Positions 2,451-60,816 of a DNA stretch of 64,000 nt are shown piece after piece; within the stretch, counting starts at the first letter, position 1; each line of letters begins with the position of its first letter. A program made the position numbers and the translations under genes. The DNA comes from a bacterium. GTDB taxonomy: Bacteria > Actinomycetota > Acidimicrobiia > Acidimicrobiales > Bin134. A model generated the notes under the pieces. That model worked only from the letters and a program-made list of their open reading frames with translations. It was not told the origin of the DNA and did no database searches. The stretch is taken from positions 164,134 to 228,133 of the forward strand of contig JAPOVT010000056.1 in the NCBI GenBank assembly GCA_026708015.1, in the 5' to 3' direction.

Positions 2451-2502
2451 GCGTCGGATGATACGGGGGAGTTCCGTCGCCGGAGAAAGCAGAAATGGGC
2501 GG

Positions 2503-3387: not shown

Positions 3388-3388
3388 T

Positions 3389-4168: not shown

Positions 4169-4176
4169 GTTTTCGC

Positions 4177-15109: not shown

Positions 15110-15185
15110 GAGCCGACGCTACTGCTTGCCTGGTGGCCGAGCCGATGTCGGCGGCGATGAAACCAGGGCTACTAGGGTTCCCGCC

Positions 15186-44637: not shown

Positions 44638-44641
44638 CCCC

Positions 44642-46623: not shown

Positions 46624-46629
46624 TCGGGT

Positions 46630-47400
46630 CTAGTTACTGGTCAGGCGGAGCCCCGCATCAAGCCTGACCGCTTCGCCGTTGAGGAATGTGTTTTCCATGA
46701 AGTGAACCACCAGGTTGCCCACGTCAGCAGGAGTGCCCAGTCGATGAGGGAACACGTTGTCTTCCACCAGTTTGGCAATGAACTCCTCGTTGAGGGTGGC
46801 CAGCATGGGGGTGTCCATGGTGCCCGGCGCGATGGTCAGCACCCGGATGCCCCACACCGCCAGGTCGCGAGCCATGGGCAGAGTCAGACCGATCACCCCG
46901 GCCTTAGACGATCCATAGGCCGATTGGCCCACCTGGCCCTCGTAGCCGGCGATGGAGGCGATGTTCACGATGAGTCCCCGCTCGCCGTCGGCATTGGGCT
47001 CGTTGGCCGACATGGCCGACACGGCATGGCGGGCCACGTCGAACAGCCCGATCAGATTCACCTCGATGTGCTGTCGGAAGTGGTCCAGGGAGTTGGGGGT
47101 GCCGTCGCGGGACACCACCCGCTGCCCGGAGCTGATCCCCGCACAGCTCACCAGCACGTCAATGCGTCCGAATACCTGAGCCGCGGTGGCTACGGCCTGC
47201 GCTACGTCATCGGTGTCTGTGACATCGACGGGCACAAAGGCAACCGCGTCGCCCGTATCGGCTGCCATGGATTCTCCAGCCGACGAGGGCAAGTCCAATA
47301 TCAAGGCCCGGCCGCCCTTGTCCACCAGCGTTTTGACCACTCCAGCGCCCAAACCCGAGGCGCCGCCAGTGACCAGAGCAACAGATTTGGCTACATCCAT
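46630..47400 (-). CDS. SDR; 3-hydroxyacyl-CoA dehydrogenase type II (HSD10)-like
   Basis: 'VALVTGGASGLGAG', 'YGSSKAGVIGLTLPMARDLA', 'NGEAVRLDAGLRL'. Confidence 0.75.
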   Translation of the reverse strand: MDVAKSVALVTGGASGLGAGVVKTLVDKGGRALILDLPSSAGESMAADTGDAVAFVPVDVTDTDDVAQAVATAAQVFGRIDVLVSCAGISSGQRVVSRDGTPNSLDHFRQHIEVNLIGLFDVARHAVSAMSANEPNADGERGLIVNIASIAGYEGQVGQSAYGSSKAGVIGLTLPMARDLAVWGIRVLTIAPGTMDTPMLATLNEEFIAKLVEDNVFPHRLGTPADVGNLVVHFMENTFLNGEAVRLDAGLRLTSN

Positions 47401-47403
47401 TAC

Positions 47404-48201
47404 TCAGAACTCCCTTAGGCGGGCGCTGGTCGGGTCCACCTCGGTTCGCAGAATGTGCAGTTCCTCGGCCGTGGGCTGAGCCGTCGTGGGAACCTCGCCA
47501 TCGGGCATCAGCACTTCGAATCCGGTGGCCTCCTGAACCTGTTCCGCGGTGACTTCTGGGTGCAGCGAGGCCAACCTCATCCTTTTGCTAACCGGCTCGA
47601 AATCGAACACGCACAAGTTGGTGATGCACAGCTGGGGTCCGCCGGGCATGCCCAAGCGTTCCCGGTGGTCGCCCCCGTCGCCCCAGCCCATGCCAGAACG
47701 GAAGTGAAGGTGCTCCACGAAGGTGCGGGGGTCGTGGGTGGACGACCACAAGTAGATGCGGGGGATCATGGCCCCGAGATCGGCCATCCCACCGCCGCCG
47801 GGCAGTCGCACTTTGGGGGCGTCGTAGGGGCCGATCACCGTGTTGTTCACGTTGCCGCAGGCGTCCATCTGCGCGCCCCGAAAAGCAAACGTGTTGTAGC
47901 GGGCTCCTTGGGCAAAGGCCCAGAAGTCGAAAGTGGAGTTGCTCAGCATCGAGGCCCCGGCCCACAGCGAATCCGACAAGGTGGAGTCGCCGATCTCGTC
48001 GGGGTCGGCATCGATGGCGATGGAGCTGGCCGCCCACACCAATTCTGGGGCGTGGGTGCGCCGGGCCAGCAGATAGCCGCACACCGGGATGAACGACACC
48101 GCGCCGTTGAAGGCCCGAGTGTCGTTGGACATGGCCCGGGAGAAGGTCACCACCATGAGCTCGTCCATGGTGCAGTGGTATCCGGGAACCGGGGTGCTCA
48201 T
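47404..48201 (-). CDS. CoA-transferase beta subunit (family I, IpdB/GctB-like)
   Basis: 265 aa from ATG 48201 (MSTPVPGYHCTMDELMVV...). ATGA overlap with the alpha subunit stop. The long upstream extension is rejected. Confidence 0.7.
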   Translation of the reverse strand: MSTPVPGYHCTMDELMVVTFSRAMSNDTRAFNGAVSFIPVCGYLLARRTHAPELVWAASSIAIDADPDEIGDSTLSDSLWAGASMLSNSTFDFWAFAQGARYNTFAFRGAQMDACGNVNNTVIGPYDAPKVRLPGGGGMADLGAMIPRIYLWSSTHDPRTFVEHLHFRSGMGWGDGGDHRERLGMPGGPQLCITNLCVFDFEPVSKRMRLASLHPEVTAEQVQEATGFEVLMPDGEVPTTAQPTAEELHILRTEVDPTSARLREF

Positions 48202-49067
48202 GCAGTCGCTCCCGTCGCCACATTGTTGACGGCCAGAAAATCCTCCCAGGTCTCCGGTCCGGCCACTCGTTCTTGGAAGAACTGAGTGAATGTCTCCCGG
48301 TTGCGGGCGGCCTGGGAATACGCCAAGAAGAACTCCGAGTCGTGGCTGTAGTCGGGAAAGCACGAACACGGGAAAGCGCCCCGGGGGGCCGGAGCCACCG
48401 CATCGATCATGAATCCCGGATAGGTTGTCCGCTCCGGTTCCGCGGTGAATGCCTCGGTACCCAAGGTTCGCTCCACCGACACCACCGAACGGGCGGCGGC
48501 GTTCACCACTTCGTTGTCCAACCACATCAGCTTGGGATTGACCCTGGTGTTGCCCCGGTCGTCGGCCTCGTGGGCGTGCACCAAGGCCACGTCCACCGGC
48601 AGGCGAGTGCAGGCCACATAGTGCTCTCCGGTGGGGCCGTCCTTCTCCTCCCGCACCGTCCCTGAAGCGGCGTGCAGTCCCAGCACGTCGGTGCCCAGGC
48701 CGGCTTTGGTGGGTATAAATGGCAAGTCGTGGCTCTGAGCCTGGAGGCGGCATACCAACAGGTGCTCGCTGTACTCCTCGATGGCCACCTGGCCCGACTG
48801 CACCGCGGCCCGGAAGTTGGGGGCCAGCCCCAAGCCCTCGAAACTGACCAGCCCCGAGATCACCCGGCGTACGCATTCACCGGCCACCAACCAGTCCACC
48901 GCCATGCCTGACACGATGGCCACCAGTTCGAGGTCCTTCTTCTCCTGGCGAACCAGCTCGCGCACCAACGCCATGGGGGCGCTGTTCATCGACATGCCGC
49001 CGATGGCCACAGTGGAACCGTCGGAAATGGACGCTGCTGCTTGTTCCAGAGTCGTTATCTTGCTCAT
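48198..49067 (-). CDS. CoA-transferase alpha subunit (family I, IpdA/GctA-like)
   Basis: 'ISDGSTVAIGGMSMNSAPMALVRELV', 'FIPTKAGLGTDV', 'IDAVAPAPRGAF', 'PDYSHDSEFF'. Resembles the M. tuberculosis IpdA layout as I remember it. Confidence 0.75.
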   Translation of the reverse strand: MSKITTLEQAAASISDGSTVAIGGMSMNSAPMALVRELVRQEKKDLELVAIVSGMAVDWLVAGECVRRVISGLVSFEGLGLAPNFRAAVQSGQVAIEEYSEHLLVCRLQAQSHDLPFIPTKAGLGTDVLGLHAASGTVREEKDGPTGEHYVACTRLPVDVALVHAHEADDRGNTRVNPKLMWLDNEVVNAAARSVVSVERTLGTEAFTAEPERTTYPGFMIDAVAPAPRGAFPCSCFPDYSHDSEFFLAYSQAARNRETFTQFFQERVAGPETWEDFLAVNNVATGATA

Positions 49068-49117
49068 CGAATCTTCTGGCCCTCTTGGTGCCTCTGTTCT
49101 TGCCGTTCTTGCAGTCC

Positions 49118-49132
49118 GCCGTACTATACGGC
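49118..49132. promoter_or_regulatory. 15-bp palindrome GCCGTA-cta-TACGGC, 2 nt upstream of the P450 ATG
   Basis: Lies in the 67-bp divergent intergenic region between the CoA-transferase operon and the P450. Candidate operator only; no regulator gene is adjacent. Confidence 0.25.
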
Positions 49133-49134
49133 CC

Positions 49135-50358
49135 ATGACTGCTGCCCCAGACATCCTCTCACCCGAGTACGACGCCAACCCCTACCCGTTCTATGAGGTG
49201 CTGCGCAACGAGCATCCCGTGATGTGGCACGAGGGCACCCAGGCCTACGTGATCAGCCGCTATGAGGACGTGGCCGGGGCGTTTCGCAACCCCCAGATCT
49301 CCAGTCGGAACTACGAATGGCAGACCGAGCCGGTACACGGACGCACCATTTTGCAAATGGAGGGGAAAGAGCACTCGTCCTATCGGGGCATCGTCAACCC
49401 CATCTTCCGGGGCAGCTACCTAGAGCAGAGCATCGTGCCGGCCATCACCAAAGCAGCCCGCCAACAGATTGGCGAATTCCTGGCCGACGGCGAGGTGGAT
49501 CTGTGCAAGCGGTTCAGCACCTACTATCCGATCGGGGTGATCGTGCAACTCCTCGACCTGCCGATGGAGGACGTGCCCCAGTTCTACGAGTGGTACACGA
49601 TGATCATGGACTTCGTGTCCAACATCACCGGCGACGAGGAGAAGAATCGCCGGGGCATGGCCGCTCGGGAGGAGATGGGGGAGTACCTCATGCCCAAGAT
49701 CGCCGAACGGCGGGCCAGCCCAGGCGACGACCTGCTCACCGCCATGGTGACCAAGGAGTTCGACGGGGTGCAGATGACCGACGACGACATCCGCGGCTTT
49801 TGCAGCCTGTTGCTGACCGCGGGCGGGGAGACCACCGAGAAGGCCATCACGCTGACCATGCGGAACCTGCTGGACAACCCCGAGCAGATGGCCGAGGTGC
49901 GGGCCGACCGCCAGCTCATCGGCAGCGCTTTTGCCGAGACGCTGCGCTTCACCGGGCCGGTGCAGATGATCATGCGCCACACCGATGAGCCGGTTGAGTT
50001 TTCCGGGGGCAAGGTGGAGGCGGGCTACACCCTGGAGTTGCTGCTGGGGGCCGCCAACCGGGACCCGGAGGCGTTCGGCGAGCCTGACCGGTTCAACATC
50101 CACCGCACTGACATGGAGTTCGACAAGGCGTTCACCGCCGCGGCCGATCACACGGCGTTCGCCCTGGGCCGCCACTTCTGTGTGGGGTCGATGCTGGCCC
50201 GGGCCGAGCTGACCGTGGCCCTGGATGCTTTGCTGGACGCCATGGACGACATCGCCTATGCCGACGGTTACGAACAAGTGGAGACTGGCGTGTACACCCG
50301 GGGGCTGACCTCGCTGCCGCTGACGTTTACGCCGAATCCGAATTTCGTTGCCGGCTAG
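49135..50358 (+). CDS. cytochrome P450 (paralog of 31783-33033)
   Basis: 'LLLTAGGETTEKAI', 'AETLRF', 'FALGRHFCVGSMLA'. Shares 'FVSNI', 'EYLMP.IAERR..PG.DLL' with the first P450. Confidence 0.9.
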   Translation: MTAAPDILSPEYDANPYPFYEVLRNEHPVMWHEGTQAYVISRYEDVAGAFRNPQISSRNYEWQTEPVHGRTILQMEGKEHSSYRGIVNPIFRGSYLEQSIVPAITKAARQQIGEFLADGEVDLCKRFSTYYPIGVIVQLLDLPMEDVPQFYEWYTMIMDFVSNITGDEEKNRRGMAAREEMGEYLMPKIAERRASPGDDLLTAMVTKEFDGVQMTDDDIRGFCSLLLTAGGETTEKAITLTMRNLLDNPEQMAEVRADRQLIGSAFAETLRFTGPVQMIMRHTDEPVEFSGGKVEAGYTLELLLGAANRDPEAFGEPDRFNIHRTDMEFDKAFTAAADHTAFALGRHFCVGSMLARAELTVALDALLDAMDDIAYADGYEQVETGVYTRGLTSLPLTFTPNPNFVAG

Positions 50359-51968
50359 CGGGGGACCACGTAGCCCGCGTCGTCGCGATCCCAAGTATCG
50401 GCAGTGATGCCCTCTTCGCGGAGCTTGAACTTTTGGACCCGCTCTGAGGGGGTCTTGGGCAAGTCATCGCACCAGCGCACGTAGCGGGGCACGGCGAAGT
50501 GGGCCATGCGGGGCACGCAGAAGTCCAGCAGCTCGGTCTCGGAAAGCTCGTGATCGGGCTTGAGCACCACCACGGCCATCACCTCTTCTTCGCCCAGCTC
50601 GGAAGGCACGCCGATAACCGCTGACTCCAGTACCGCGTCGCAGGTGTTGATAACCGCCTCCACTTCGTAGGAGGAGATGTTCTCGCCCCGGCGGCGCACG
50701 CAATCCTTCATGCGGTCAATGAAAGTCAGGTAGCCGTCCTCGTCGAGGCGGCCCCGGTCGCCGGTGTGGAACCACAGATTGCGGAACGCCTTAACCGTGG
50801 CGTCGGGCATGTCGAAGTAGTTGTCGATCATTATGTGGGGCTTCTTGGGCCGCACCACGATCTCGCCCGCAGTTCCGGGGGGCACCGGTTGGTCTTCGGG
50901 ATCTACCACCTGCACGTGGTACAGGGCCGACTCTCGACCTGCGGTGCCGATCTTGCGCATACCCCGGCGGTTCTCGGTGGTGATGGCCACCTCGGTCATG
51001 CCGTACACCTCGCTGAGGTGGACCCCGAAACGCTCCTCGAACGGTTCCCAAATCTCAATCGGGCAGGGAGCGCCGAAGCCGTTGCGCACCGGATTGTCGG
51101 CGTCGTCGGGCCGCTCGGGCTGCTTCCACAGCATCATGATCAGGCCGCCCTGGTAATTGAAGGCGGTGATGCCCTCGGCCCGGCAGCGGTCCCAGAAACG
51201 GCTGGCCGAGAACCGCCGGTCCATGATGAGGCGGGCGTCGGCCTCCATGGCGCACATCACGCTGGTGTACTTGGCGTTGATGTGGAACAGCGGGAAGGCG
51301 GTGTAGAGCACGTCTTCCCTGTCGTAGCCCACCAAGTCCACCGTGTGTCGGGCCAAATTGAGGTTGGCCTCGTGGCACAGCATTACGCCTTTGGACGGCC
51401 CAGTGGTGCCCGACGTGTACAAGATGACCGCGGTATCCCGGTAGTCCACGTCGGGCTCGGGAGCAGGGGAGTCGAGGTAGAGGTCGGCCAGCTCGTGGAC
51501 GGTGACGTGGCCGGGGAAGTCCGGAATGCCGACGTCCTCTGTGCCCTCGGCTCGGTTGACCACCACGTGCTCGAGGCCGGGCAAACTTGGGGCCGCCTCG
51601 GCGATGCGGTCGAGGTAGTCGGCGTCGCACACCACCGCCGAGGAACGGGATTGGCTGATCAGGTACTCCAGCAGGTGGCCCCGGTAGGCCTGATTGATGG
51701 GCACCTCCACCACCCCGGCCTTGTTCATGGCGAACCAGGCGTCGATGCACTCCAGTGAGTTCTGCATCATTAGGCAAGCCCGGTCGCCCGGACCCAATTC
51801 CAGGGAGGTCAAACCAGCAGCCAAGCGGTCGGAATCCAGATGGACCCCGGCGTAGGTCTTATCCCTCCCCTCCACGGTCAGCGCCAAGCGGTCGCCGTTG
51901 GCCTGGGCTTTGTGGCCGATCCAGGCGCCGATGGTGCGCGGCTGGGCTGATTTGGAAGAAGAGCTCAT
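50355..51968 (-). CDS. AMP-dependent acyl-CoA synthetase/ligase
   Basis: 'ILYTSGTTGPSKGVM', 'WFHTGDRGRLDEDGYLTFIDRMKDCVRRRGENIS'. Start at ATG 51968. Its stop overlaps the P450 stop (CTAG). Confidence 0.85.
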   Translation of the reverse strand: MSSSSKSAQPRTIGAWIGHKAQANGDRLALTVEGRDKTYAGVHLDSDRLAAGLTSLELGPGDRACLMMQNSLECIDAWFAMNKAGVVEVPINQAYRGHLLEYLISQSRSSAVVCDADYLDRIAEAAPSLPGLEHVVVNRAEGTEDVGIPDFPGHVTVHELADLYLDSPAPEPDVDYRDTAVILYTSGTTGPSKGVMLCHEANLNLARHTVDLVGYDREDVLYTAFPLFHINAKYTSVMCAMEADARLIMDRRFSASRFWDRCRAEGITAFNYQGGLIMMLWKQPERPDDADNPVRNGFGAPCPIEIWEPFEERFGVHLSEVYGMTEVAITTENRRGMRKIGTAGRESALYHVQVVDPEDQPVPPGTAGEIVVRPKKPHIMIDNYFDMPDATVKAFRNLWFHTGDRGRLDEDGYLTFIDRMKDCVRRRGENISSYEVEAVINTCDAVLESAVIGVPSELGEEEVMAVVVLKPDHELSETELLDFCVPRMAHFAVPRYVRWCDDLPKTPSERVQKFKLREEGITADTWDRDDAGYVVPR

Positions 51969-51979
51969 GGTCGCCCCCG

Positions 51980-52762
51980 TCAGTTCAGCACTTCGGGGGC
52001 CTCGCGCAGCAGTCGCCGCACCGCCCCCTCCCAGTAGTACCGAACCGTCATGTGATGGCTGTTGACCGCGGCCTTCAGGGTGGGGCGTTGTTCGGGGGGT
52101 ATCGGCACCGGGGTTTGGCCAACCTGCATGGCGCCGTAATTGAGCCGGCACACCCGCTCGAAGTTCGAGGCCCGGTACACGGCCTGCTCGGTGGTCTCCC
52201 CGGCGATGAGCACCCCGTGGTTGGCCAAGATCACCGCGGTGGCGCTGCCCACCGCGTCGGCCATGTGCTGGCCGCCGGCGGCGTCGTCCACACCGCCGGT
52301 ATAGGTGCCGAACAGGGCGATGTCGCCGTCGAACATGCAGGCCTGCTGGTCGGTGATCTCGGGCAGCTTGTGCATGGTTGACAGGAGGCTGCCGTAGTAG
52401 GGGTGGTTGTGGATCACCACTCGGGCGTCGGGGCGAGCCCGGTGCATCTCAGTGTGGATGAACACCGCCGGGGTGACATCCCAGCGGCCTTCCAGCACTT
52501 CGCCATCGGCGTCAATCATCAAGATGTCGGAGGCGGTGATCTCGTTCCACCACAGCCCATAGGGGGTACACCACATGGAGCCGTCGTCGGCATCGTCTCG
52601 CACGACGGTGATGTGCCCGGCCACATCCAGCGCATACCCCTCGGTGTCGAGGATGCGGGCGGCGCAGGCGATCTTCTGGGGCACAGTGAGCGGCTGGTCT
52701 AGTCCGGGCATCACCCGGGGAAATCCGCTTTGTCCGGCGATGGCTTCGTCAAGCTTGCCCAT
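51980..52762 (-). CDS. class II aldolase / adducin-domain protein
   Basis: 'DVAGHITV', 'IHTEMHRARPD...VIHNHPYYG', 'ILANHGVLIAGET'. Confidence 0.75.
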   Translation of the reverse strand: MGKLDEAIAGQSGFPRVMPGLDQPLTVPQKIACAARILDTEGYALDVAGHITVVRDDADDGSMWCTPYGLWWNEITASDILMIDADGEVLEGRWDVTPAVFIHTEMHRARPDARVVIHNHPYYGSLLSTMHKLPEITDQQACMFDGDIALFGTYTGGVDDAAGGQHMADAVGSATAVILANHGVLIAGETTEQAVYRASNFERVCRLNYGAMQVGQTPVPIPPEQRPTLKAAVNSHHMTVRYYWEGAVRRLLREAPEVLN

Positions 52763-52826
52763 ACCCTGCTAGATAGCACACTTGGAAGCTGCTCAAAGAA
52801 TGTGAGAACACCGGGAGGGGCGGGCT

Positions 52827-53411
52827 ATGGGCTGGAGAACAATGGGCGATGCCGGATATCCGGCCCGTTTGGACTCGAATCCGGCGGTGTCGCCGCGCAT
52901 TCAACGGTGGGATCACATCGGGATCGCAGTGCGCTCCATCGAGGCTGCCGTGCCGCTGTTTCGGGATGTGTTCGGCGGGCAGTTCGTAATGGGGGGCGAC
53001 GACGTGCCGCTCGACATCCGCACCGCCATGTTCAAGCTGCCCGACACCGTGAAGGTGGAGCTGCTGGAGCCGCTAAACGAGCAGAGCTACCTGCGCCGCT
53101 TCATCGATAAACACGGGGAGGGGTTCCACCACGTGACCATCTTCGTGGACGACGTGGAAGCTGCCATCGTGGACCTAGAGGCCACCGGCTATGAGGTGGT
53201 GGATACCGACCTGAGCGAACCCCACTGGCGGGAGACCTATGTGCGGCCCAAGTCAGGGCACGGCTGCCTGTTCCAGATCGTCGACTCTGAGATCGACTGG
53301 CTCGAGCCCCATCCGCACTGCACAGTCGAGGATGTGATCGCGGGGAAGTGGCGTTGGTGGAGGAGCCAAATCTGGCACGTCGACCAATTGCCCGACGGCT
53401 ATAGCGAGTAG
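52827..53411 (+). CDS. VOC (glyoxalase/epimerase-like) family protein
   Basis: 'WDHIGIAVRSIEAAVPLFRDVFGG', 'VELLEP', 'GEGFHHVTIFVDDVEAA'. Start uncertain. Confidence 0.7.
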   Translation: MGWRTMGDAGYPARLDSNPAVSPRIQRWDHIGIAVRSIEAAVPLFRDVFGGQFVMGGDDVPLDIRTAMFKLPDTVKVELLEPLNEQSYLRRFIDKHGEGFHHVTIFVDDVEAAIVDLEATGYEVVDTDLSEPHWRETYVRPKSGHGCLFQIVDSEIDWLEPHPHCTVEDVIAGKWRWWRSQIWHVDQLPDGYSE

Positions 53412-53415
53412 GGGG

Positions 53416-55074
53416 TTACAGCCCCAGTTCGGCTTGGAGCTTTTCGGCTAGGCGGAATTTCTGGATCTTGGTGGCGGACATGGGCCATTCGTTGGGAGCC
53501 ACGAACTGGACGTGGCGGGGGATCTTGAAGCTGGCGATCTGGCCTCGGCAGAACTCGATCAGCTCCTCCTCAGTGGCCTCGGCGTCGGGCTTGAGCTCGA
53601 CGAATGCCGCTGGCACCTCGGCGTACTTCTCGTCGGGCAGGGGGACCACCTGGGCGATGGCCACCGCCGGGTGGGTTTGGAGGTAGCTCTCGATCTCCAC
53701 CGCGGCCACGTTCTCGCCGCCCACCTTGAGCATGTCCTTGGTGCGACCCAGATAGCTGATGCGCCCATCCGGGTCGAGCGAGCCGATGTCGCCGGTGAAG
53801 AACCAGCCCTCCTCGTCGAAGCACTCGGCGTTCTTCTCCGGGTCCTTGTAGTAGCCCTCGAACACGTTGTAGCCCCGCACCCAGATCTCTCCCGGTTGGT
53901 TGGGCTCAGAGAGCGTTTCTCGGGTTTCGAGGTTCTTGATCTTGACCTCGATGCCCCGGAACGGGCGGCCCGACGACACCGCCCAGGTCTCCGGCGGGTC
54001 GTCGGGGCCGGAGAAGGACACCACGCCGCCGCACTCGGTGAGTCCGTAGGCATTCACATGGCGGGCCCAGGGGAGCAGGGCGTGGATGGCCCGCAGGGCA
54101 TCGGGCGGTGCCACGTTGTTCATCAGCCGGATGCGCTGGAACTCGTCGGAGTCCCAGTCGGGGTGGTTGATCATGGCCTGGGTGACCGGAGGGAAGGTGG
54201 AGAAGCACACGGTGGCCTTCTCATCCCGCATCTGCGCGATGGCCTCGGCTGGGTCGAAGTGGGTGATGGTCACGTAGGACGACCCCGCGTCCAGGCAGCC
54301 GATGAGAGGGAGAATCGAGCTCATGTGGAACAGGGGGAGCGGGTCCCAGAACACGTCGGTGTCGGTCAGCTCGAACCGGGACCGGCATGCCGTGACCGCG
54401 GTGCGCACCAGCGACTCGTGGTTCAAGGGGCAGCCCTTGGGCTCTGCGGTGGTGCCCGAGGTGTAGATCATGAGGGCCTCGTTGCGGATGGCCACCCGGG
54501 TACGGAGCAACTCCACCTCGTCGTCTGTGGCATCGTCGGCGAGGGCTTCGAACGCAGACCGGTCCACCATTCCGGCCGGGGAAGAACTGCCCAGCAGCAC
54601 TACTGCCTTCAGCTCGGGAGCAACATCGAGATCGAGATTGGCCGGATCAGCAGCTTCTGCCAGACCGGGCAGGCAGTCGTGGAGGATCACCACATAGTCG
54701 GTGAACTGGTCGATGATGTCGCTGGTGACCAGTACCTTCAGGTCGGCGTTCTCGGTGACGTAGGCCAATTCCCGCCCCTTGAAGCGGGCATTGATGGGAA
54801 CCGGAACCGCGCCAATGAGCGCCACTCCAAACATCACCTCGATGAAGTCCATGCAGTTGGGCATGAGGATCCCCACCCGGTCTTGGGGTCGAACCCCTAG
54901 CCCCAAAAGCGACCGAGCCGACCGCCTGGCCGCGGCCTCCAACGAGTTGAAGCTGTGCCGGGTATCGGGAAACACCACCGCGTCCTGGTCCCCATACAAC
55001 GCAGCCCCCCGCACCACCAGATCGCCATACGTGGTCACGTCAACCCAAGTGCTCATCCCCGTAGCTTCGCGCAC
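53416..55074 (-). CDS. AMP-dependent acyl-CoA synthetase/ligase
   Basis: 'MIYTSGTTAEPKGC', 'WFFTGDIGSLDPDGRISYLGRTKDMLKVGGENVA', 'TKIQKFRL'. ATG 55056 is an alternative start. Confidence 0.85.
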   Translation of the reverse strand: MREATGMSTWVDVTTYGDLVVRGAALYGDQDAVVFPDTRHSFNSLEAAARRSARSLLGLGVRPQDRVGILMPNCMDFIEVMFGVALIGAVPVPINARFKGRELAYVTENADLKVLVTSDIIDQFTDYVVILHDCLPGLAEAADPANLDLDVAPELKAVVLLGSSSPAGMVDRSAFEALADDATDDEVELLRTRVAIRNEALMIYTSGTTAEPKGCPLNHESLVRTAVTACRSRFELTDTDVFWDPLPLFHMSSILPLIGCLDAGSSYVTITHFDPAEAIAQMRDEKATVCFSTFPPVTQAMINHPDWDSDEFQRIRLMNNVAPPDALRAIHALLPWARHVNAYGLTECGGVVSFSGPDDPPETWAVSSGRPFRGIEVKIKNLETRETLSEPNQPGEIWVRGYNVFEGYYKDPEKNAECFDEEGWFFTGDIGSLDPDGRISYLGRTKDMLKVGGENVAAVEIESYLQTHPAVAIAQVVPLPDEKYAEVPAAFVELKPDAEATEEELIEFCRGQIASFKIPRHVQFVAPNEWPMSATKIQKFRLAEKLQAELGL

Positions 55075-55156
55075 CCTGCCAGTTTGTTGCCTCCCCAGGA
55101 GATGGAGAGATCGAAAAATGTATAGGTGTTGTCACTTTTCGGCTATTTTTGTCGAC

Positions 55157-56305
55157 ATGGTGTACACAAGGCTCTTGGCGGTTCCCGACAGGAGCTTCTT
55201 TCTGTTCGGCGTGCGAGGCGTGGGCAAGAGCACATGGGTGCGCATGATGTTGCCTGAAGCCACCCGCTTCGACCTGCTGGACGAGGCGCTGTTCACTGAT
55301 CTGCTGGCCGATCCAGCGTTGTTCGGGAACCTCTTGTCAGGCGTTGAGCCAGGACACTGGGTGGTAGTGGACGAAGTGCAGCGCATACCCGCACTGCTCA
55401 ATGAGGTTCACCGCCAGATTGAAGAACGAGGTATTCGCTTTGCATTACTGGGCTCCAGCGCCCGGAAACTCAAGACTGCGGGCACGAATCTGCTGGCTGG
55501 GCGGGCAGCTCGCAAGGCCATGTATCCGCTCACTCCGGCCGAATTGGGTGGCGATTTCGATCTAGACGAGGCCCTTCGCTTTGGAACCATCCCTCTGGTT
55601 TGGGCCGCCGATGACCGCCGTGAAGTCTTGGAGAGCTACACCCAGCTCTATCTTCGCGAGGAGATCAGAGCTGAGGCCGCGGTGCGGAATCTGCCCGGTT
55701 TCATTCGATTCCTCCCGGTGGCCGCGCTGATGCATGCCCAGACGCTCAATGTGGTTGGCTTGGCACGAGACACAGGAGTTGCCCGTCCCACCGTGGCCGG
55801 CTATCTGGAGGTGCTAGAAGACACACTGCTCGTAACCCGCTTGGAGGCGTTCGAGGCCAAACTCCGGGTGCGAGAGCGACGACGTCCCAAGCTCTATTGG
55901 GTCGACCCCGGCTTGGTGAGAGCAGCGAAGCGACAACTCGATCCGGTGACCGCCGAAGAGCGAGGCGCGTTGTTGGAGGGCTGGGTCTATGGGCTTCTAA
56001 GGGCCCACAACGAAACCCAAGCGATCTTCGATGCCATTGCCTATTGGTCGCCCACCGAGTCGGATGCTGAGGTCGACTTCCTGCTCACTCGCGGCAATGA
56101 GCATCTCGCCCTCGAAGTCAAGGCCTCGACCGGCTACAACACCACCATGCTGAAGGGCCTGCGAGCCATCGACGGCCTGGCTGGCTTGACACGCCGCATC
56201 CTTATCTACAACGGCACCCGCGACTTCCGAACCGAAGACGGGATCCACGTCTGGCCCGTCGACCAATTTCACGAAGCTCTCACCACTGACCGGCTTTGGC
56301 CCTGA
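55157..56305 (+). CDS. AAA-type ATPase with DUF4143-like C-terminal PD-(D/E)xK module
   Basis: Walker A 'GVRGVGKST', Walker B 'WVVVDEVQ'. C-terminal 'AEVDFLLTRGNEHLALEVKAS' (D...ExK). Start at ATG 55157 after an AT-rich leader. Confidence 0.75.
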   Translation: MVYTRLLAVPDRSFFLFGVRGVGKSTWVRMMLPEATRFDLLDEALFTDLLADPALFGNLLSGVEPGHWVVVDEVQRIPALLNEVHRQIEERGIRFALLGSSARKLKTAGTNLLAGRAARKAMYPLTPAELGGDFDLDEALRFGTIPLVWAADDRREVLESYTQLYLREEIRAEAAVRNLPGFIRFLPVAALMHAQTLNVVGLARDTGVARPTVAGYLEVLEDTLLVTRLEAFEAKLRVRERRRPKLYWVDPGLVRAAKRQLDPVTAEERGALLEGWVYGLLRAHNETQAIFDAIAYWSPTESDAEVDFLLTRGNEHLALEVKASTGYNTTMLKGLRAIDGLAGLTRRILIYNGTRDFRTEDGIHVWPVDQFHEALTTDRLWP

Positions 56306-56348
56306 GCAGTTACTGCGCCGTGTTTCCATGTTCTGGTAGACACAGTTT

Positions 56349-56561
56349 GTGGACCTGGTTATCAAGAACCTCGACGAAGAAGTTGCCCGGCGACTGGAGG
56401 AGCAGGCAGTTGCCGCTGGGGTACCGCTGCATTGGCATGTGCAAAACGAGCTAGCTCGTATTGCTTCCCGACTCTCACCTGCTGAGCTGGTCAGTGGCCG
56501 TCAGCCGATGAACCGATCAGAGTTCGAGGCCATACGGCAGCGCTTGCGTAGTCAGGCCTGA
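56349..56561 (+). CDS. ribbon-helix-helix (Arc/FitA/VapB-like) small protein
   Basis: GTG start. 'VDLVIKNLDEEVARRLEEQAVAAGVPLHWHVQNELARIA' fits the RHH antitoxin/regulator pattern. No PIN or other toxin gene follows. Confidence 0.5.
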   Translation: MDLVIKNLDEEVARRLEEQAVAAGVPLHWHVQNELARIASRLSPAELVSGRQPMNRSEFEAIRQRLRSQA

Positions 56562-56661
56562 CAATTCATACTGCGCGAAAGTGTCTCTCGCTTTCAGATA
56601 ATGACATAAGTGTGAGTTGGAATCGCACTACCGTCTACACCAAGGAAGCGAGGGACCGAGG

Positions 56662-57744
56662 ATGTCCAGAACCATCCGCTCGATTGATCTGTTCGCGGGG
56701 GCAGGGGGCTTGTCGCTGGGATTCGATCTAGCCAACGACGAACTCGACAGCATCAGGTTTGAGTCCGCTTTCGCAGTTGAGCACGATCCCGCAGCAGCGC
56801 TGACCTACAAGACCAATTTCGGCGTCACCGTGTACGACGGTGATATCGAAGGGTTTGACCCGATCACTTACCCAGAAGCGGAGGTCATTGTCGGTGGCCC
56901 TCCCTGCCAGGGGTTTTCCCCGCTCGGCCGTGACCGGGATGACCAGTCTCGTGCTGAGTTGAACGCACTCTGGGAGCACTATCTCGCTGCGGTCGAGCAA
57001 GTTGAGCCGTTGGCATTCGTCATTGAGAACGTCCCGGAGTTTCAGAAGTCGGCTGAGTTCGAAGAGCTGCTGAGACGACTCGCATCTCATCCGCTGTTAC
57101 GCGAGTACTGCTATAGCTACGGAGTGCTGAACGCGGTGGACTATGGAGTTCCACAAAGCCGGCGGAGGGGAATCTTTATGGCGGTGAGAGGCAGGGAGGT
57201 TCCGTGGCCGCCACCCCCCACGCATGGGGGTGGTCCAATAGGCCAGGAACCGGCGCGGACGGTGCGGGATGCCATTGGGGATCTGCCACCGAAGCCAACG
57301 ACAGACCAGCCAGTCATGAGAGACGGGTTTCAGGACCTGCATATCCGCCGGAACCCACGGCCGACTTCTCTAGAGCGATACCAGGCAATCCCCGAGGGCG
57401 GCAACCGGTTCGACCTCCAGCGAGCTCGACCCGACCTAACCCCTGCCTGCTGGGCCAACAAGCCGACCGGAACGACGGACGTTATGGGCCGGTTGTGGTG
57501 GGACAGGCCCAGCTTTACCATCCGCACCGAGTTCTACAAGCCCGAGAAGGGTCGCTACCTGCACCCCAGCGAGGACCGCCCCATCACCCACCGCGAGGCT
57601 GCTCGACTCCAGACCTTCCCAGATGTCTTCATTTTCGAAGGCACCAAAATCGAGATCGCCCGCCAGATCGGCAACGCCGTCCCCTCGCTGCTGGGCAAGG
57701 CCATCGCCCTCCATCTCGCAAAGCTGCTGGGGCAGGGACGGTAG
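56662..57744 (+). CDS. DNA (cytosine-5)-methyltransferase
   Basis: Motif I 'DLFAGAGGLSLGF', IV 'GGPPCQGFS', VI 'FVIENVPEF', VIII 'QSRRR', X 'GNAVP'. Confidence 0.9.
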   Translation: MSRTIRSIDLFAGAGGLSLGFDLANDELDSIRFESAFAVEHDPAAALTYKTNFGVTVYDGDIEGFDPITYPEAEVIVGGPPCQGFSPLGRDRDDQSRAELNALWEHYLAAVEQVEPLAFVIENVPEFQKSAEFEELLRRLASHPLLREYCYSYGVLNAVDYGVPQSRRRGIFMAVRGREVPWPPPPTHGGGPIGQEPARTVRDAIGDLPPKPTTDQPVMRDGFQDLHIRRNPRPTSLERYQAIPEGGNRFDLQRARPDLTPACWANKPTGTTDVMGRLWWDRPSFTIRTEFYKPEKGRYLHPSEDRPITHREAARLQTFPDVFIFEGTKIEIARQIGNAVPSLLGKAIALHLAKLLGQGR

Positions 57745-57784
57745 GGATTGACCGTCAACAAGCTGTTTTGTAGAACTTCGGCCA

Positions 57785-58687
57785 GTGAACGCAAGACCAG
57801 ATCCTGAATTAGAAGCGGTTGCCGATGAATTGATGGGCATTCGAGACTTCGAGAGCCGAGTAGCGACCGTCCTTCGGGACACGCTTGACCAGCTCTACGA
57901 TGGCCAACGCACCGGACGGTACAAGTGGGATCAGCTTCACAAGACGGAAAAGACCCATTGCGGAACCTTGGTCGAGATCAACATGCAGCGCGAGTTCCAG
58001 TTCGCAGACGGCAAGAAGCTCGACTACAAGATCGCCAACATAGAAGTGGACTGTAAGTACTCGCAGAAGCTGGGCGGTTGGATGATCCCAGTAGAGGCTC
58101 GAGGCGAGTTGTGCATGGTGATCTGGGCTGATGACGGTAAGTCGGTTTGGACGCTGGGTTTGGTCAGAGCTCTCAAGGAGATGCTCACCAAGGGGGGAAA
58201 TAGGGACAGGAAAGCCAGCCTCAGCCAAGACGGGATGTCATCAGTACGCTGGCTCTTCCAGGAAAGCGAACTCCCACCAAACGTCCTGCTCCAGATTCCA
58301 GAAGCTGACGTCAACCACATCATGGGGCCCAAGTCTGGGGCCGAAAGGATCCGACGCCTGTTCCGCACCGTGCAGGGCCAGCGGATAGGACGTGGTGTCG
58401 TGGCCACCGTCGCCCAACAAGCCGACTACATGAAGCGAATCCGCGGCAACGGCGGTGCCCGCAGCCAGCTCCGGGAAGAAGGCATCATCATCCTCGGCCA
58501 GTACGAGGCCCACCGCGAGATCGCTCGCCAACTTGGAATCACAGTCCCTGGCAAAGGCGAGTCAGTCAGCGCCCGGGTAAGGGTTTCTGATTCTTCTACT
58601 CCAGACTCTGTGCTGATCGAAGGTTCTTGGTGGTGTTTAGCACGAGAAGTAGATTCAGCGGTGAAAGCTCCTGATGTGTCCACTTAG
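57785..58687 (+). CDS. type II restriction endonuclease, NaeI family
   Basis: 'LRDTLDQLYDGQRTGRYKWDQLHKTEKTHCGTLVEINMQREFQF', 'LDYKIANIEVDCKYS', 'VATVAQQADYMKRIRGNGGARSQLREEGIIILG' closely follow the NaeI sequence as I recall it. GTG start. Confidence 0.75.
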   Translation: MNARPDPELEAVADELMGIRDFESRVATVLRDTLDQLYDGQRTGRYKWDQLHKTEKTHCGTLVEINMQREFQFADGKKLDYKIANIEVDCKYSQKLGGWMIPVEARGELCMVIWADDGKSVWTLGLVRALKEMLTKGGNRDRKASLSQDGMSSVRWLFQESELPPNVLLQIPEADVNHIMGPKSGAERIRRLFRTVQGQRIGRGVVATVAQQADYMKRIRGNGGARSQLREEGIIILGQYEAHREIARQLGITVPGKGESVSARVRVSDSSTPDSVLIEGSWWCLAREVDSAVKAPDVST

Positions 58688-59583
58688 TGAGAGCGGAAGA
58701 CTTCAGCAGAGTTATGGCGGGATGGTTACGTACATGTCGAAGCACAATGGATGGCATTACAATGACAACAGATGCATTTGATGATCTAAAAAAACACTTC
58801 AAGGCAATGGCGATCGAGTTGAAGAGCAAAGGCGAACAAGCAAGCGTGTTTGCCCACACTTCGGACACCGGAACGGAACGGGAGGAAGCATATCGAACCT
58901 TTCTTGAGCGACATCTCCCAAAGACCTGCGATGTGTTCCTTGGCGGGTACTTGTTTGATATGAATGGAGCTAAATCCTCCCAGATGGATGTCATAGTTAC
59001 CGATGGGCATACTCCTAGATTCGTTATGCCGGATGGCAGCAAGCACATTGCGCCATTGGAGGGATCAGTCGGTGTCGCTGAGATAAAATCTAAGTTGGAC
59101 AAGGATTCACTGCTTAGGGCTCTAGAGGGATGCGCGTCGATCCCTGGTATGCCAGACAAAAGTGGGCTTGCCAACCCTATGTTGAAATTGCATGATGAAG
59201 GCTGGTTAGACACTCCCTATAAGGTGATCTTTGCTTATGATGGAGTGGCGGCAGATACACTTCTAGACCATCTCAATAGTTTCTATCTTGAACACAGCGA
59301 TATAACTTTAGACAGACGGCCTAATGTCATTCATGTATTGGGTAAGTATATGATCATTCGAGTGGTTTCTGGAATATCCTTTCAGACAATTGGTGATGCA
59401 CCAAGCGACGATTCTCTTTCGATCGGACAATTTGAGGCACTGACCGTTCAGCCTGATGTGTCTGCAATGCTTTGGATTATAAATGCCCTGCACAAAAAGG
59501 CCTCTACCGCTTCTCATCTCTTGTACAAATTTGATGCATGGCACGAAAACATTGTCATGCGTCTTGTGGCTGAGCCTGCCTGA
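58687..59583 (+). CDS. DUF6602-like predicted PD-(D/E)xK protein with unrecognised C-terminal half
   Basis: 'TGTEREEAYRTFLERHLPKTCDVFLGGYLFDMNGAKSSQMDVIVTD...PLEGSVGVAEIKSKL'. GC is 21/60 (58741-58800) and 22/60 (59281-59340). Start uncertain: GTG 58687 overlapping the NaeI-like stop, or ATG 58714/58747/58762. Confidence 0.5.
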   Translation: MRAEDFSRVMAGWLRTCRSTMDGITMTTDAFDDLKKHFKAMAIELKSKGEQASVFAHTSDTGTEREEAYRTFLERHLPKTCDVFLGGYLFDMNGAKSSQMDVIVTDGHTPRFVMPDGSKHIAPLEGSVGVAEIKSKLDKDSLLRALEGCASIPGMPDKSGLANPMLKLHDEGWLDTPYKVIFAYDGVAADTLLDHLNSFYLEHSDITLDRRPNVIHVLGKYMIIRVVSGISFQTIGDAPSDDSLSIGQFEALTVQPDVSAMLWIINALHKKASTASHLLYKFDAWHENIVMRLVAEPA

Positions 59584-59828
59584 CGTCTGGCAGCATGTCC
59601 GACTCATGGCGCGGCTTTTGACACGGGGCTGATAACCGTTAATGGGGGGCTCAAAGTTCATCTGGCGCAGAAACTTGAGACGAGTACCCGTGCTGACCCC
59701 GGCGTTGACCAGTACCTCGGCCAGCGCTCAGACCAAAGTTGGTGATTCCAGAGCAGGGTGAGCGTCCTGGGGATACCTACTTGACCTGGCACCAAGAGCA
59801 CGTCTTTCAGAGGGTCGTCGCGACCTGA
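59584..59828 (+). pseudogene. HNH (HNH_2-type) endonuclease, 3' remnant with frameshift
   Basis: Frame 1 reads 'RLAACPTHGAAFDTGLITVNGGLKVHLAQKLE...' to TGA 59743. Frame 0 continues 'ALRPKLVIPEQGERPGDTYLTWHQEHVFQRVVAT*' to the stop at 59826-59828. There is no N-terminal part and no start codon. Confidence 0.5.
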
Positions 59829-59846
59829 CGCTGAGCTCTTGATGGT

Positions 59847-60710
59847 TTATGACGTTTCGAGGAGCGCGTCGCAGTCGATGAGGGTGGGGTTGGTGGGTGC
59901 GAGGCGGCGGATCATCACTTGGATGGCTTCGGGGTTGTTGTCGATGAGGAGGTAGTCGCGGCCGTGTTTGGCGGCGGCTTCGCCGAGGGTGCCGCTGCCA
60001 GCGAAGAAGTCGAGCAGGAGGTCGCCTGGTCTTGAGTGGACCTTCACCAGGCGCTCGAGGACGCCGAGGGGCTTTTGGGTGGCGTAGCCGGTCTTCTCTT
60101 TGCCGTTGGGGCTCACGATGGTGTGCCACCAAACGTCGGTGGGGGTCTTGCCCCGGGCGGCCTTCTCCTTGCCGACCAGACCGGGGGCCATGTAGGGGAT
60201 TCGATCCATCTCGTCGAAGTTGAACGTGTAGTCAGCAGGGTCTTTGGCGTACCACAGGATGCTGTCGTGCTTGGCCGACCACTTCTTCTTGGAGCGGGCT
60301 CCGTAGTCGTAGGCCCAGATGATCTCGTTCATGAACGAGTCCCGGCCGAAGATCTGATCGAGCAGCACCTTGCAGTAGTGGACCTCCCGGTAGTCGATGT
60401 GGAGAAAGAAACTGCCGGTGTCGGCTAGGACCCGGTGGGCTTCCTCGAATCGGGGGGCGAGAAATTCCATGTAGTCGTCGAAGGCGTCGTCATAGCCCGA
60501 CTTGCCAAGGCGGATCGTCTGGTAGCGGCGACCGGCGAAGCCAGTTCGGTCGCCGTTGGTTTCGTCGTGAATGGTCTTGAACCGCTCGCGCTCTTGCCGC
60601 TTACCGGTGTTGAAAGGCGGGTCAACGTAAATGAGGTCGACGCTGGCGTCGGGCAAGCTCTGCAGCACCGGCAGGTTGTCGCCAAAGACGATCTTCCCCA
60701 TCCCGGCCAA
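59847..60710 (-). CDS. site-specific DNA methyltransferase, beta class (DPPF; N6-adenine or N4-cytosine)
   Basis: Motif IV 'LIYVDPPFNTG' precedes motif I 'LLLDFFAGSGTLGEAA'. 'TQKPLGVLERLV' is also present. Confidence 0.85.
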   Translation of the reverse strand: MAGMGKIVFGDNLPVLQSLPDASVDLIYVDPPFNTGKRQERERFKTIHDETNGDRTGFAGRRYQTIRLGKSGYDDAFDDYMEFLAPRFEEAHRVLADTGSFFLHIDYREVHYCKVLLDQIFGRDSFMNEIIWAYDYGARSKKKWSAKHDSILWYAKDPADYTFNFDEMDRIPYMAPGLVGKEKAARGKTPTDVWWHTIVSPNGKEKTGYATQKPLGVLERLVKVHSRPGDLLLDFFAGSGTLGEAAAKHGRDYLLIDNNPEAIQVMIRRLAPTNPTLIDCDALLETS

Positions 60711-60740
60711 TCCTAGTGGTCAGGCTCCGACCTACTGGGT

Positions 60741-60794
60741 ATATTGAAAGATATTGAAATGACTGGAATCCACAGTTATTTCCACATATCCACA
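60741..60794. repeat. AT-rich junction: 10-bp tandem direct repeat plus three head-to-tail DnaA-box-like 9-mers
   Basis: atattgaaag/atattgaaat (60741-60760). GAATCCACA (60766-74), ATTTCCACA (60778-86), ATATCCACA (60786-94) versus TTATCCACA. GC is 19/60 over 60741-60800. Confidence 0.5.
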
Positions 60795-60816
60795 GAACTT
60801 GAGACTTCGAACCTGC

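What the first reader, a model, noticed from the sequence alone, without database searches (positions are those of the whole stretch)
59584..59828. Frameshifted HNH endonuclease stump facing a DPPF methyltransferase: an R-M system that lost its R gene
Immediately after the low-GC gene, composition returns to high GC. The sequence encodes only the C-terminal end of an HNH_2-type nuclease. 'CPTHGAAFDTGLITVNGGL' runs to a stop at 59743. After a -1 shift the tail reads '...LTWHQEHVF'.

There is no N-terminal part and no start codon. The fragment is convergent with an intact beta-class methyltransferase 18 nt away, which is the classic tail-to-tail R-M layout. Reading this as deletion or replacement of the 5' part of R by the low-GC cassette explains the abrupt GC boundary near 59560-59585. 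It leaves the methyltransferase orphaned.
Basis: partly seen in the sequence, partly recalled or inferred. Interest (0 to 1): 0.6.

Follow-up and report, generated by a model that had tools for sequence, protein, structure and literature searches.

The report
Dead HNH nuclease stump beside conserved methylase
The fragment is a real, dead remnant of a 342-residue HNH nuclease gene, cut down when other defence genes entered a variable hotspot in a sponge-symbiont genome, but the methyltransferase next to it looks like a conserved stand-alone enzyme rather than the nuclease's abandoned partner, so the case is instructive but fairly ordinary.

Summary
Window 59590-59828 holds the last ~80 codons of an HNH_2 nuclease gene, broken by a 1-nt deletion near 59723. 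It has no 5' part and no start codon, and it lies 18 nt from a convergent intact beta-class methyltransferase (bMT). Sister species of the genus (Candidatus Poriferisocius, sponge-associated Acidimicrobiales) carry an intact 342-aa gene at this position. An independent assembly that is 97.8% identical has the same junction and the same deletion, so this is not a sequencing error.

The 5' three quarters were replaced within a defence-gene hotspot between an acyl-CoA ligase and bMT. In this genome the hotspot holds a NaeI-type m5C R-M pair plus a low-GC DUF6602/NucC-like nuclease gene. The breakpoint abuts that low-GC gene.

The R-M reading is only partly supported.
- bMT sits at this locus in about 32 of 36 genus genomes, with dN/dS ~0.10 whether or not HNH is present.
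- bMT relatives outside the genus are solitary in 13 of 13 contexts.
- 21 of 24 genomes outside the genus that carry an HNH homologue have no bMT.
- The closest solved HNH domains belong to the modification-dependent enzymes VcaM4I and TagI.

The most likely story is a solitary nuclease lost from a hotspot beside a resident orphan methylase. Interest is low to moderate.

The parts
59590..59745 (+). HNH stump, first piece. It corresponds to residues ~263-308 of the intact 342-aa protein, then runs out of frame into a premature TGA at 59743-59745. It keeps only the last His of the H-N-H motif, and the invariant Asp after that His is Gly (THD to THG).
59722..59724 (+). Site of the 1-nt deletion (one A missing from GGCCAAGC) that shifts the frame.
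   Evidence: alignment A1; the same deletion is in an independent assembly
59727..59828 (+). HNH stump, second piece in the shifted frame (residues ~310-342, ...LTWHQEHVFQRVVAT, stop at 59826-59828).
59584..59589 (.). Breakpoint between the stop codon of the low-GC gene (59581-59583) and the start of HNH homology.
59847..60710 (-). Intact beta-class N6_N4 DNA methyltransferase (bMT). DPPF and FAGSG motifs are present. It is convergent with the stump and 18 nt from it.
58687..59583 (+). Low-GC (41-50%) DUF6602 gene with a NucC-like PD-(D/E)XK nuclease domain. At this locus it is unique to this species within the genus.
57785..58687 (+). NaeI-family restriction endonuclease.
   Evidence: PF09126, E=8e-112
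56617..57744 (+). C5-cytosine methyltransferase, the partner of the NaeI-like enzyme.
56349..56561 (+). Small ribbon-helix-helix protein. It also occurs at this locus in HNH-intact species.
55100..56305 (+). AAA_14/DUF4143 ATPase (PADLOC candidate system PDC-S01). It also occurs at this locus in HNH-intact species. The exact start codon is not settled.
55073..59589 (.). The 4.5-kb segment that is not syntenic with G028/G007, where 1.9 kb (an unknown 329-aa gene plus the HNH 5' part) sits instead. G003 has only 49 bp here.

Best explanation
Window 59590-59828 is the non-functional 3' remnant of a ~342-aa nuclease gene. The intact protein has an all-alpha N-terminal domain of unknown type and a C-terminal HNH_2 domain. 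It lies in a variable defence-gene hotspot between a conserved acyl-CoA ligase gene and a conserved beta-class adenine methyltransferase gene (bMT) in Candidatus Poriferisocius.

Shown: in this lineage the 5' ~785 bp of the gene, with two of its three catalytic HNH residues, are gone. Their place is taken by a NaeI-type m5C R-M pair followed by a horizontally acquired low-GC DUF6602/NucC-like nuclease gene, whose end abuts the breakpoint. The remnant then lost one base and changed residues that are invariant in intact copies, so it cannot make a nuclease.

Inferred: the HNH enzyme was a solitary restriction-type nuclease, most like the Type IV class, rather than the cognate Type II partner of bMT. 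bMT is a resident stand-alone methyltransferase kept for a function of its own. The tail-to-tail layout would then be inherited neighbourhood, not a functional unit.

The remnant and replacement part is about 0.95 certain. The 'not a cognate pair' part is about 0.6 certain, and the overall confidence given is for the whole statement.
For: Remnant status:
- Intact orthologues sit at the same position in at least 10 surveyed sister species.
- PF13391 hits the intact orthologue.
- The breakpoint and the 1-nt deletion are visible in the DNA alignment.
- The own genome has no N-terminal part anywhere.
- An independent assembly has the same junction and the same deletion.
- Unique changes at invariant positions: D270G, F306L, G338R.

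Hotspot:
- Between ligase and bMT, species carry intact HNH, or NaeI R-M, or other cassettes, or nothing (49 bp in G003).
- HNH remnants in 5 species have different breakpoints.

bMT independent of HNH:
- bMT is present in about 32 of 36 genus genomes at 83-97% aa identity.
- Median dN/dS is 0.094 among HNH-intact genomes and 0.102 among HNH-less genomes.
- Seven of 7 homologues at 72-78% identity in other phyla, and 6 of 6 at 54-62%, are solitary among housekeeping genes.

HNH independent of bMT:
- None of 35 full-length homologues outside the genus has bMT adjacent.
- 21 of 24 of their genomes lack a bMT orthologue, and the 3 that have one carry it at an unlinked place.
- MTase domains turned up in only about 9 of the 182 ORFs scanned beside those 35 homologues (7 C5, 2 N6_N4); the rest are largely metabolic genes.
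- The nearest solved structures of the HNH domain are the modification-dependent enzymes VcaM4I (6YEX) and TagI (6GHS).
- There is a partial NCBIfam match to a phosphorothioate-DNA restriction endonuclease.
Against: - In the genus the two genes are tightly convergent (18-44 nt apart) in most species that have both, which is a classic R-M layout.
- A PADLOC model labelled 'Type II restriction enzyme' also hits the HNH domain (E=6e-14).
- bMT's best PADLOC hit is a Type II MTase model.
- About 7 of 35 HNH homologues outside the genus sit directly beside C5 methyltransferases in R-M-like arrangements, so some family members may be Type II enzymes.
- In G022 a 65-codon fragment of a second bMT-like gene lies next to the HNH gene, which could mean the pair once moved as a unit.
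- The N-terminal domain matches no known modification-reader fold.
- No biochemical or methylome data exist.
Confidence: 0.6

Rival explanations
1. HNH and bMT were a cognate Type II R-M system in the genus ancestor. The R gene has decayed repeatedly, here by cassette replacement plus a frameshift, and the M gene has been kept as an orphan.
For: - The genes are convergent and 18-44 nt apart in at least 10 species.
- R is lost repeatedly while M is always retained, which is the expected asymmetry for R-M decay.
- PADLOC Type II labels hit both proteins.
- A bMT-like fragment lies next to the HNH gene in G022.
Against: - There is no linkage, or even co-occurrence, of the two families outside the genus.
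- bMT homologues are solitary in 13 of 13 contexts.
- bMT shows the same strong purifying selection without HNH, which implies a function independent of R.
- The adjacency within one genus counts as one ancestral event, not repeated evidence.
Confidence: 0.25
2. Epigenetic-conflict variant of the best explanation. The HNH enzyme was an m5C-dependent Type IV nuclease. Arrival of the NaeI-type m5C methyltransferase made it self-toxic, so its destruction was selected for and not merely incidental.
For: - No genus genome has both. None of the 15 genomes with intact HNH carries the NaeI R-M, against 14 of the 25 without intact HNH (Fisher p=3e-4).
- The only two genomes with both NaeI and HNH DNA have truncated HNH.
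- The HNH domain is closest to the m5C/5hmC-dependent enzymes VcaM4I and TagI.
- A comparable conflict between a Dcm-type R-M system and a methylation-dependent HNH enzyme is documented in Pectobacterium (PMC8989522).
Against: - Both elements occupy the same hotspot, so mutual exclusion follows from simple physical replacement.
- The genomes are not phylogenetically independent, and the bMT tree is unresolved.
- Intact HNH genes lie close to other C5 methyltransferases in G031 and G022, and some homologues outside the genus do too, including a partly M.NaeI-like one.
- No reader domain is recognisable.
Confidence: 0.2
3. Artefact. The truncation or frameshift comes from a mis-assembly or sequencing error in a metagenome-assembled genome.
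For: The source is a MAG. The low-GC gene could in principle be a chimeric join.
Against: - An independent assembly with 2.2% divergence over 10 kb has the identical gene order, junction and 1-nt deletion.
- Both flanks are syntenic with many relatives.
- Four other species carry comparable HNH remnants.
Confidence: 0.02

Closest known systems
VcaM4I (EVE-HNH; PDB 6YEX) and TagI (SRA-HNH; PDB 6GHS), Type IV modification-dependent restriction endonucleases
   Same: The C-terminal HNH_2-type catalytic domain and the helices before it match (profile E=1.3e-10 to VcaM4I; Foldseek E=1e-5 to VcaM4I and 6e-2 to TagI). Both have a two-domain sensor-plus-nuclease layout. Most members lack a neighbouring methyltransferase.
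   Different: The N-terminal ~200 residues are all-alpha and have no detectable similarity to EVE/PUA, SRA, winged-helix or sulfur-binding domains. Dependence on modification is untested. The window copy is only a dead 80-codon remnant.
Decayed Type II R-M systems that leave orphan methyltransferases (general knowledge of R-M evolution)
   Same: A nuclease gene is destroyed and an intact convergent methyltransferase is retained. The nuclease has been lost repeatedly across related species.
   Different: The methyltransferase family is solitary wherever it was sampled outside the genus, and the nuclease family occurs without it. A cognate relationship is therefore not demonstrated.
Beta-class N6-adenine methyltransferases: M.RsrI, CcrM, M.MboIIA, YhdJ-like (PRK11524)
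   Same: Beta-class motif order with a DPPF catalytic motif. The best PDB sequence matches are M.RsrI (E=5e-28), CcrM and M.MboIIA. It is genus-wide, solitary and under purifying selection, like the orphan regulator CcrM.
   Different: All NCBIfam equivalog cut-offs are missed. The target motif and any regulatory role are unknown.
PcaRCI / PcaRCII conflict in Pectobacterium carotovorum (PMC8989522)
   Same: An incoming Dcm-type R-M system and a resident solitary HNH nuclease in a variable region. The two are antagonistic or mutually exclusive.
   Different: In that case the HNH gene is silenced by promoter methylation and stays intact. Here the gene is physically truncated, and a conflict is only a hypothesis.

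Membership tests
HNH_2 nuclease (Pfam PF13391) | Significant match to the family model | tested here: not met
   The stump alone gives no Pfam hit, whether as two pieces or joined. The intact orthologue G028 scores 36.3 bits against a cut-off of 21. The stump is homologous to that orthologue (E=1e-39), so it is a remnant of a member, not a member.
HNH_2 nuclease (Pfam PF13391) | Complete His-Asn-His beta-beta-alpha-metal catalytic core | tested here: not met
   The stump starts at residue ~263. H244 and N261 are deleted and only H269 remains. The invariant D270 is Gly.
Type II restriction-modification system (HNH + bMT as cognate pair) | Nuclease and methyltransferase genes adjacent | tested here: met
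   They are convergent and 18-44 nt apart in at least 10 genus species and in the window.
Type II restriction-modification system (HNH + bMT as cognate pair) | The two families are linked or co-occur across independent lineages | tested here: not met
   None of 35 HNH homologues outside the genus has bMT adjacent. 21 of 24 of their genomes lack bMT. None of 13 bMT homologue contexts has a nuclease neighbour.
Type II restriction-modification system (HNH + bMT as cognate pair) | Methylation by M protects the site that R cleaves | not testable with these tools
   This needs biochemistry or methylome data.
Type IV modification-dependent restriction endonuclease | Catalytic domain of the kind used by characterised members | tested here: met
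   VcaM4I and TagI are the only meaningful PDB matches. There is a partial match to NCBIfam PT-DNA_restrict.
Type IV modification-dependent restriction endonuclease | Recognisable modified-DNA reader domain | tested here: not met
   The N-terminal domain model (pLDDT 84) is all-alpha and has no Pfam, PDB sequence or Foldseek match.
Type IV modification-dependent restriction endonuclease | Usually no cognate methyltransferase next to the gene | tested here: met
   Among the 182 ORFs scanned beside the 35 loci outside the genus, only 9 carry a DNA methyltransferase domain (7 C5, 2 N6_N4). The rest are largely metabolic genes.
Type IV modification-dependent restriction endonuclease | Cleavage depends on DNA modification | not testable with these tools
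   This needs expression in methylation-plus and methylation-minus hosts, or in vitro assays.
Solitary (orphan) DNA methyltransferase | Intact catalytic and SAM-binding motifs | tested here: met
   Full-length PF01555 match (E=2.5e-48). DPPF and FAGSG are present.
Solitary (orphan) DNA methyltransferase | Conserved under purifying selection without a partner nuclease | tested here: met
   dN/dS is 0.10 among HNH-less genomes and 0.09 among HNH-intact genomes. Homologues outside the genus are solitary in 13 of 13 contexts.
Solitary (orphan) DNA methyltransferase | Active methylation of the genome | not testable with these tools
   This needs SMRT or nanopore methylome data.
NaeI-type R-M system (the replacing cassette) | NaeI-family endonuclease next to a C5 methyltransferase | tested here: met
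   PF09126 E=8e-112 and PF00145 E=1.8e-54, 40 nt apart on the same strand.

The most novel reading that the evidence does not exclude
The intact protein would be a new kind of modification-dependent (Type IV) nuclease, with an uncharacterised all-alpha sensor domain fused to a VcaM4I/TagI-like HNH domain. The stump would then record an epigenetic conflict. When the NaeI-type m5C R-M system entered the hotspot, the resident nuclease became self-toxic and was eliminated. That would explain why no Poriferisocius genome has both an intact HNH gene and the NaeI system (0 of 15 against 14 of 25).
Probability: 0.2. Interest if true: 0.55.

Novelty: new member of a known kind. Interest (0 to 1): 0.3.

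Why it matters
The stump itself is an ordinary pseudogene scar. Three things give it some value.

- It marks a well-defined, genus-wide hotspot where defence cassettes are swapped in uncultured sponge symbionts: HNH nuclease, NaeI R-M, a PDC-S01-type ATPase, a NucC-like nuclease and small variable cassettes.
- It shows that a tail-to-tail nuclease/methylase pair should not be read as a cognate R-M system without checking linkage outside the clade.
- It points to two uncharacterised families worth testing. One is a solitary beta-class adenine methyltransferase that is 71-78% identical across several phyla. The other is a ~330-aa HNH nuclease family with an unknown N-terminal domain.

Tried and rejected
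- Pfam on the stump pieces and on the joined read-through gave nothing useful. Identity had to come from orthologues.
- An exact search for the junction in JGI metagenome contigs found nothing. Independent confirmation came instead from the look-up of encoding contigs on the DUF6602 protein.
- A bMT nucleotide tree meant to count independent HNH losses came out star-like and unresolved. I rely on the different breakpoints instead.
- The N-terminal domain of the intact HNH gave no significant hit by PDB profile search, Pfam or Foldseek on a separate model. In particular it showed no EVE, SRA, winged-helix or sulfur-binding-domain match.
- I tested whether the C5 methyltransferases beside HNH homologues outside the genus are one orthologous partner family. 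They are not: most pairs share 25-33% identity.
- The Mycetocola bMT homologue looked close to the HNH gene but lies on another contig.
- The apparently split bMT in the second assembly is a 10-N scaffold gap, not decay.
- The unknown 329-aa gene upstream of HNH is confined to the genus, so it is not a conserved partner.

Full report
**1. What is in the sequence**

Between the stop of a low-GC gene (TGA at 59581-59583) and a convergent methyltransferase gene lie 245 bases. In one frame they read RLAACPTHGAAFDTGLITVNGGLKVHLAQKLETSTRADPGVDQYLGQRSDQSW, with a stop at 59743-59745. In the shifted frame they read PKLVIPEQGERPGDTYLTWHQEHVFQRVVAT, with a stop at 59826-59828. No ORF of 30 aa or more opens in the stump's frame. 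The gap to the stop of the 287-aa methyltransferase (59847-60710, minus strand; PF01555, E=2.5e-48) is 18 nt. GC climbs from 0.41 to about 0.59 across 59400-59700.

**2. Is it an HNH remnant?**

Pfam does not recognise the fragment, either in pieces or joined. Six-frame searches of the genus found open frames of 330-416 aa that match the stump at up to 83% identity (E down to 1e-39), and in most of these genomes the frame lies directly beside the methyltransferase orthologue.

The G028 orthologue (342 aa, L042:14333-15361) hits PF13391 HNH_2 at residues 224-281 with 36.3 bits against a cut-off of 21. The stump corresponds to residues ~263-342. The deleted part includes CGFCGF...SHIKPW...NG, which holds the first His and the Asn of the H-N-H core.

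A DNA alignment with six intact genes shows homology starting at about 59590 and a single missing base near 59723, in GGCC-AGC against GGCCAAGC. The stump also carries changes at positions that are invariant in 9 to 49 intact homologues: THD to THG, YF to YL, and FQG to FQR.

Pairwise dN/dS of the stump against intact genes is 0.04-0.15, within or near the range seen between intact genes (0.03-0.13). Most of its divergence therefore predates inactivation, which makes the inactivation recent relative to the divergence of the species.

The own genome holds no other piece of the gene. It has only a 28%-identical paralogue on another contig.

**3. Not an artefact**

The DUF6602 protein of the window has a 99%-identical counterpart on an independent record (GCA_026707505.1, also held as ERZ23496890). 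That 10-kb region is 97.8% identical to the window, with 203 mismatches. It has the same gene order, and within 59584-59850 it differs at one base only. The junction and the 1-nt deletion are identical.

**4. What replaced the 5' part**

Synteny with five relatives holds for window 44002-55072 and from 59590 onward. The 4.5 kb between these stretches is not shared with G028 or G007. G028 and G007 have there an unknown 329-aa gene and the full HNH gene. G003 has just 49 bp between the acyl-CoA ligase gene and the methyltransferase gene.

The window's 4.5 kb encodes five genes:
- an AAA_14/DUF4143 ATPase (PADLOC PDC-S01)
- a ribbon-helix-helix protein
- a C5 methyltransferase
- a NaeI-family endonuclease (E=8e-112)
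- the low-GC DUF6602 gene, whose N-terminal domain matches NucC-like PD-(D/E)XK nuclease models

I surveyed 25 further genus genomes.
- The ATPase and the RHH gene also occur together with intact HNH (G010, G031, G022). They are therefore older residents of the locus.
- The NaeI pair occurs at this locus in at least 9 species, and never with an intact HNH gene.
- The DUF6602 gene is found at this locus only in this species. Its nearest relatives at 48-57% identity include MAG proteins labelled Chloroflexi, Caldilineaceae and Bacteroidota.

The most economical sequence of events is a NaeI cassette that displaced the HNH 5' region, followed by a swap of the third gene that brought in DUF6602 and trimmed the remnant to codon 263. 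This order is an inference.

HNH remnants with other breakpoints exist in four more species:
- G034: residues 228-342, plus a duplicated tail (312-342)
- G001: residues 276-340
- G024: residues 251-299
- G021: residues 235-302

The gene is entirely absent in at least 10 species. Loss has therefore been recurrent.

**5. Was it an R-M system?**

Within the genus the layout looks like one. But the genus is a single ancestral arrangement, so I tested linkage elsewhere.

(a) The methyltransferase
- It is present at 83-97% identity in about 32 of 36 genus genomes.
- Median dN/dS is 0.094 among HNH-intact genomes and 0.102 among genomes without intact HNH.
- More than 8000 database proteins match it at E<1e-40, and the 120 best listed are at least 71% identical, many of them from other phyla.
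- All seven contexts inspected at 72-78% identity (among them Planctomycetota, Deltaproteobacteria and Eisenbacteria MAGs) show a solitary gene among housekeeping genes.
- Six further homologues at 54-62% identity also lack nuclease neighbours.
- Its nearest solved relatives are the adenine methyltransferases M.RsrI, CcrM and M.MboIIA.

(b) The nuclease
- A genome-collection scan confirmed 562 relatives, of which 80 loci were kept.
- Among 35 full-length homologues outside the genus (36-60% identity), none has bMT within 4 kb.
- Among the 182 ORFs scanned beside them, Vsr matched 9, C5 methyltransferases 7 and N6_N4 methyltransferases 2. The rest are largely metabolic genes.
- 21 of 24 of their genomes lack a bMT orthologue, and the three that have one keep it unlinked.
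- The adjacent C5 methyltransferases are not one orthologous family.

(c) The HNH domain
- Its only meaningful PDB relatives are VcaM4I (6YEX) and TagI (6GHS), both modification-dependent enzymes.
- NCBIfam gives a partial match to a phosphorothioate-DNA restriction endonuclease.
- PADLOC also gives a hit to an HNH model labelled Type II, so the domain type is not diagnostic on its own.
- The N-terminal ~200 residues fold confidently (pLDDT 84-85) into an all-alpha domain with no match in Pfam or the PDB.

On balance, the cognate-pair reading is not supported by the one test that could give independent evidence. I put it at about 0.25. The reading that a solitary nuclease was lost from a hotspot beside a resident orphan methyltransferase is about 0.6.

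**6. A more interesting possibility**

An intact HNH gene and the NaeI m5C system never co-occur in 40 genus genomes (0 of 15 against 14 of 25; Fisher p=3e-4). If the HNH enzyme were m5C-dependent, this would be an epigenetic conflict resolved by gene destruction. A related conflict, resolved there by silencing, is documented in Pectobacterium (PMC8989522).

Two things weaken the argument. The two elements compete for the same physical site, and the genomes are not independent samples. Intact HNH genes also lie close to other C5 methyltransferases. I give this about 0.2.

**7. Verdict**

This is a real, well-documented pseudogene remnant. The proposed mechanism, replacement by incoming DNA, is right. 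The R-M framing is doubtful. The phenomenon belongs to known kinds: defence-island turnover and orphan methyltransferases. Interest is low to moderate (0.3).

Noticed in passing
window 59847-60710 (-); P0027, P0037, P0058, P0070, P0074, P0077, P0097: The beta-class methyltransferase belongs to a very large family. More than 8000 proteins match at E<1e-40, and the best-listed ones stay 71-78% identical across phyla, including MAGs labelled Planctomycetota, Deltaproteobacteria, Eisenbacteria, Anaerolineales and Parcubacteria. It is a solitary gene among housekeeping genes in every context inspected. This may be an uncharacterised conserved orphan adenine methyltransferase.
   Followed up: partly
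L042:14333-15361 and alignment A5: The intact HNH protein family (~330 aa; 562 relatives confirmed in the genome collection, mostly Actinomycetota) has a confidently predicted all-alpha N-terminal domain of ~200 residues with no Pfam, PDB sequence or Foldseek match. Conserved motifs include RPPGS..KM.NLDGS.
   Followed up: partly
window 59581-59745: The TGA stop of the DUF6602 gene is in frame with the first piece of the HNH stump, so stop read-through would add 53 residues. This is probably a coincidence (a 1-in-3 chance).
   Followed up: no
L058 (G034) 14614-15973: In G034 the HNH 3' end occurs twice: residues 228-342, and a second copy of residues 312-342 next to the methyltransferase. Two small ORFs lie between the copies and look like an antitoxin / PIN-toxin pair by eye (not scanned). 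This suggests cassette insertion with target duplication at the convergent gene ends.
   Followed up: no
L060 (G022) 7574-7765: A 65-codon fragment of a second, diverged beta-methyltransferase (60% identical, residues 221-285, with a TAG) lies 44 nt from the intact HNH gene. The full resident methyltransferase is 5.7 kb away.
   Followed up: partly
window 58687-59583; P0158, P0170, P0183, P0195: DUF6602 homologues at 48-57% identity include MAG proteins labelled Chloroflexi, Caldilineaceae and Bacteroidota, which points to exchange between distant phyla. The C-terminal half of the protein has no family assignment.
   Followed up: partly
L071 (G035) 2059-2826: G035 keeps only a 5'-truncated NaeI-like gene (residues 55-300) and no C5 methyltransferase. 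The NaeI system itself therefore also decays at this hotspot.
   Followed up: no
L128 (Mycetocola zhadangensis) 2425-4954: In this distant actinobacterium an HNH homologue (36% identical) sits head-to-head with a NaeI homologue (50% identical) and a fragment of an M.NaeI-like gene. The same two nuclease families are neighbours in another order.
   Followed up: partly
window 60711-60816: The low-GC spacer upstream of the methyltransferase start has repeated TCCACA-cored words (also flagged in an earlier first-reader note). It aligns in some relatives (G028, G007, G033) but not fully in G026 and G003.
   Followed up: no
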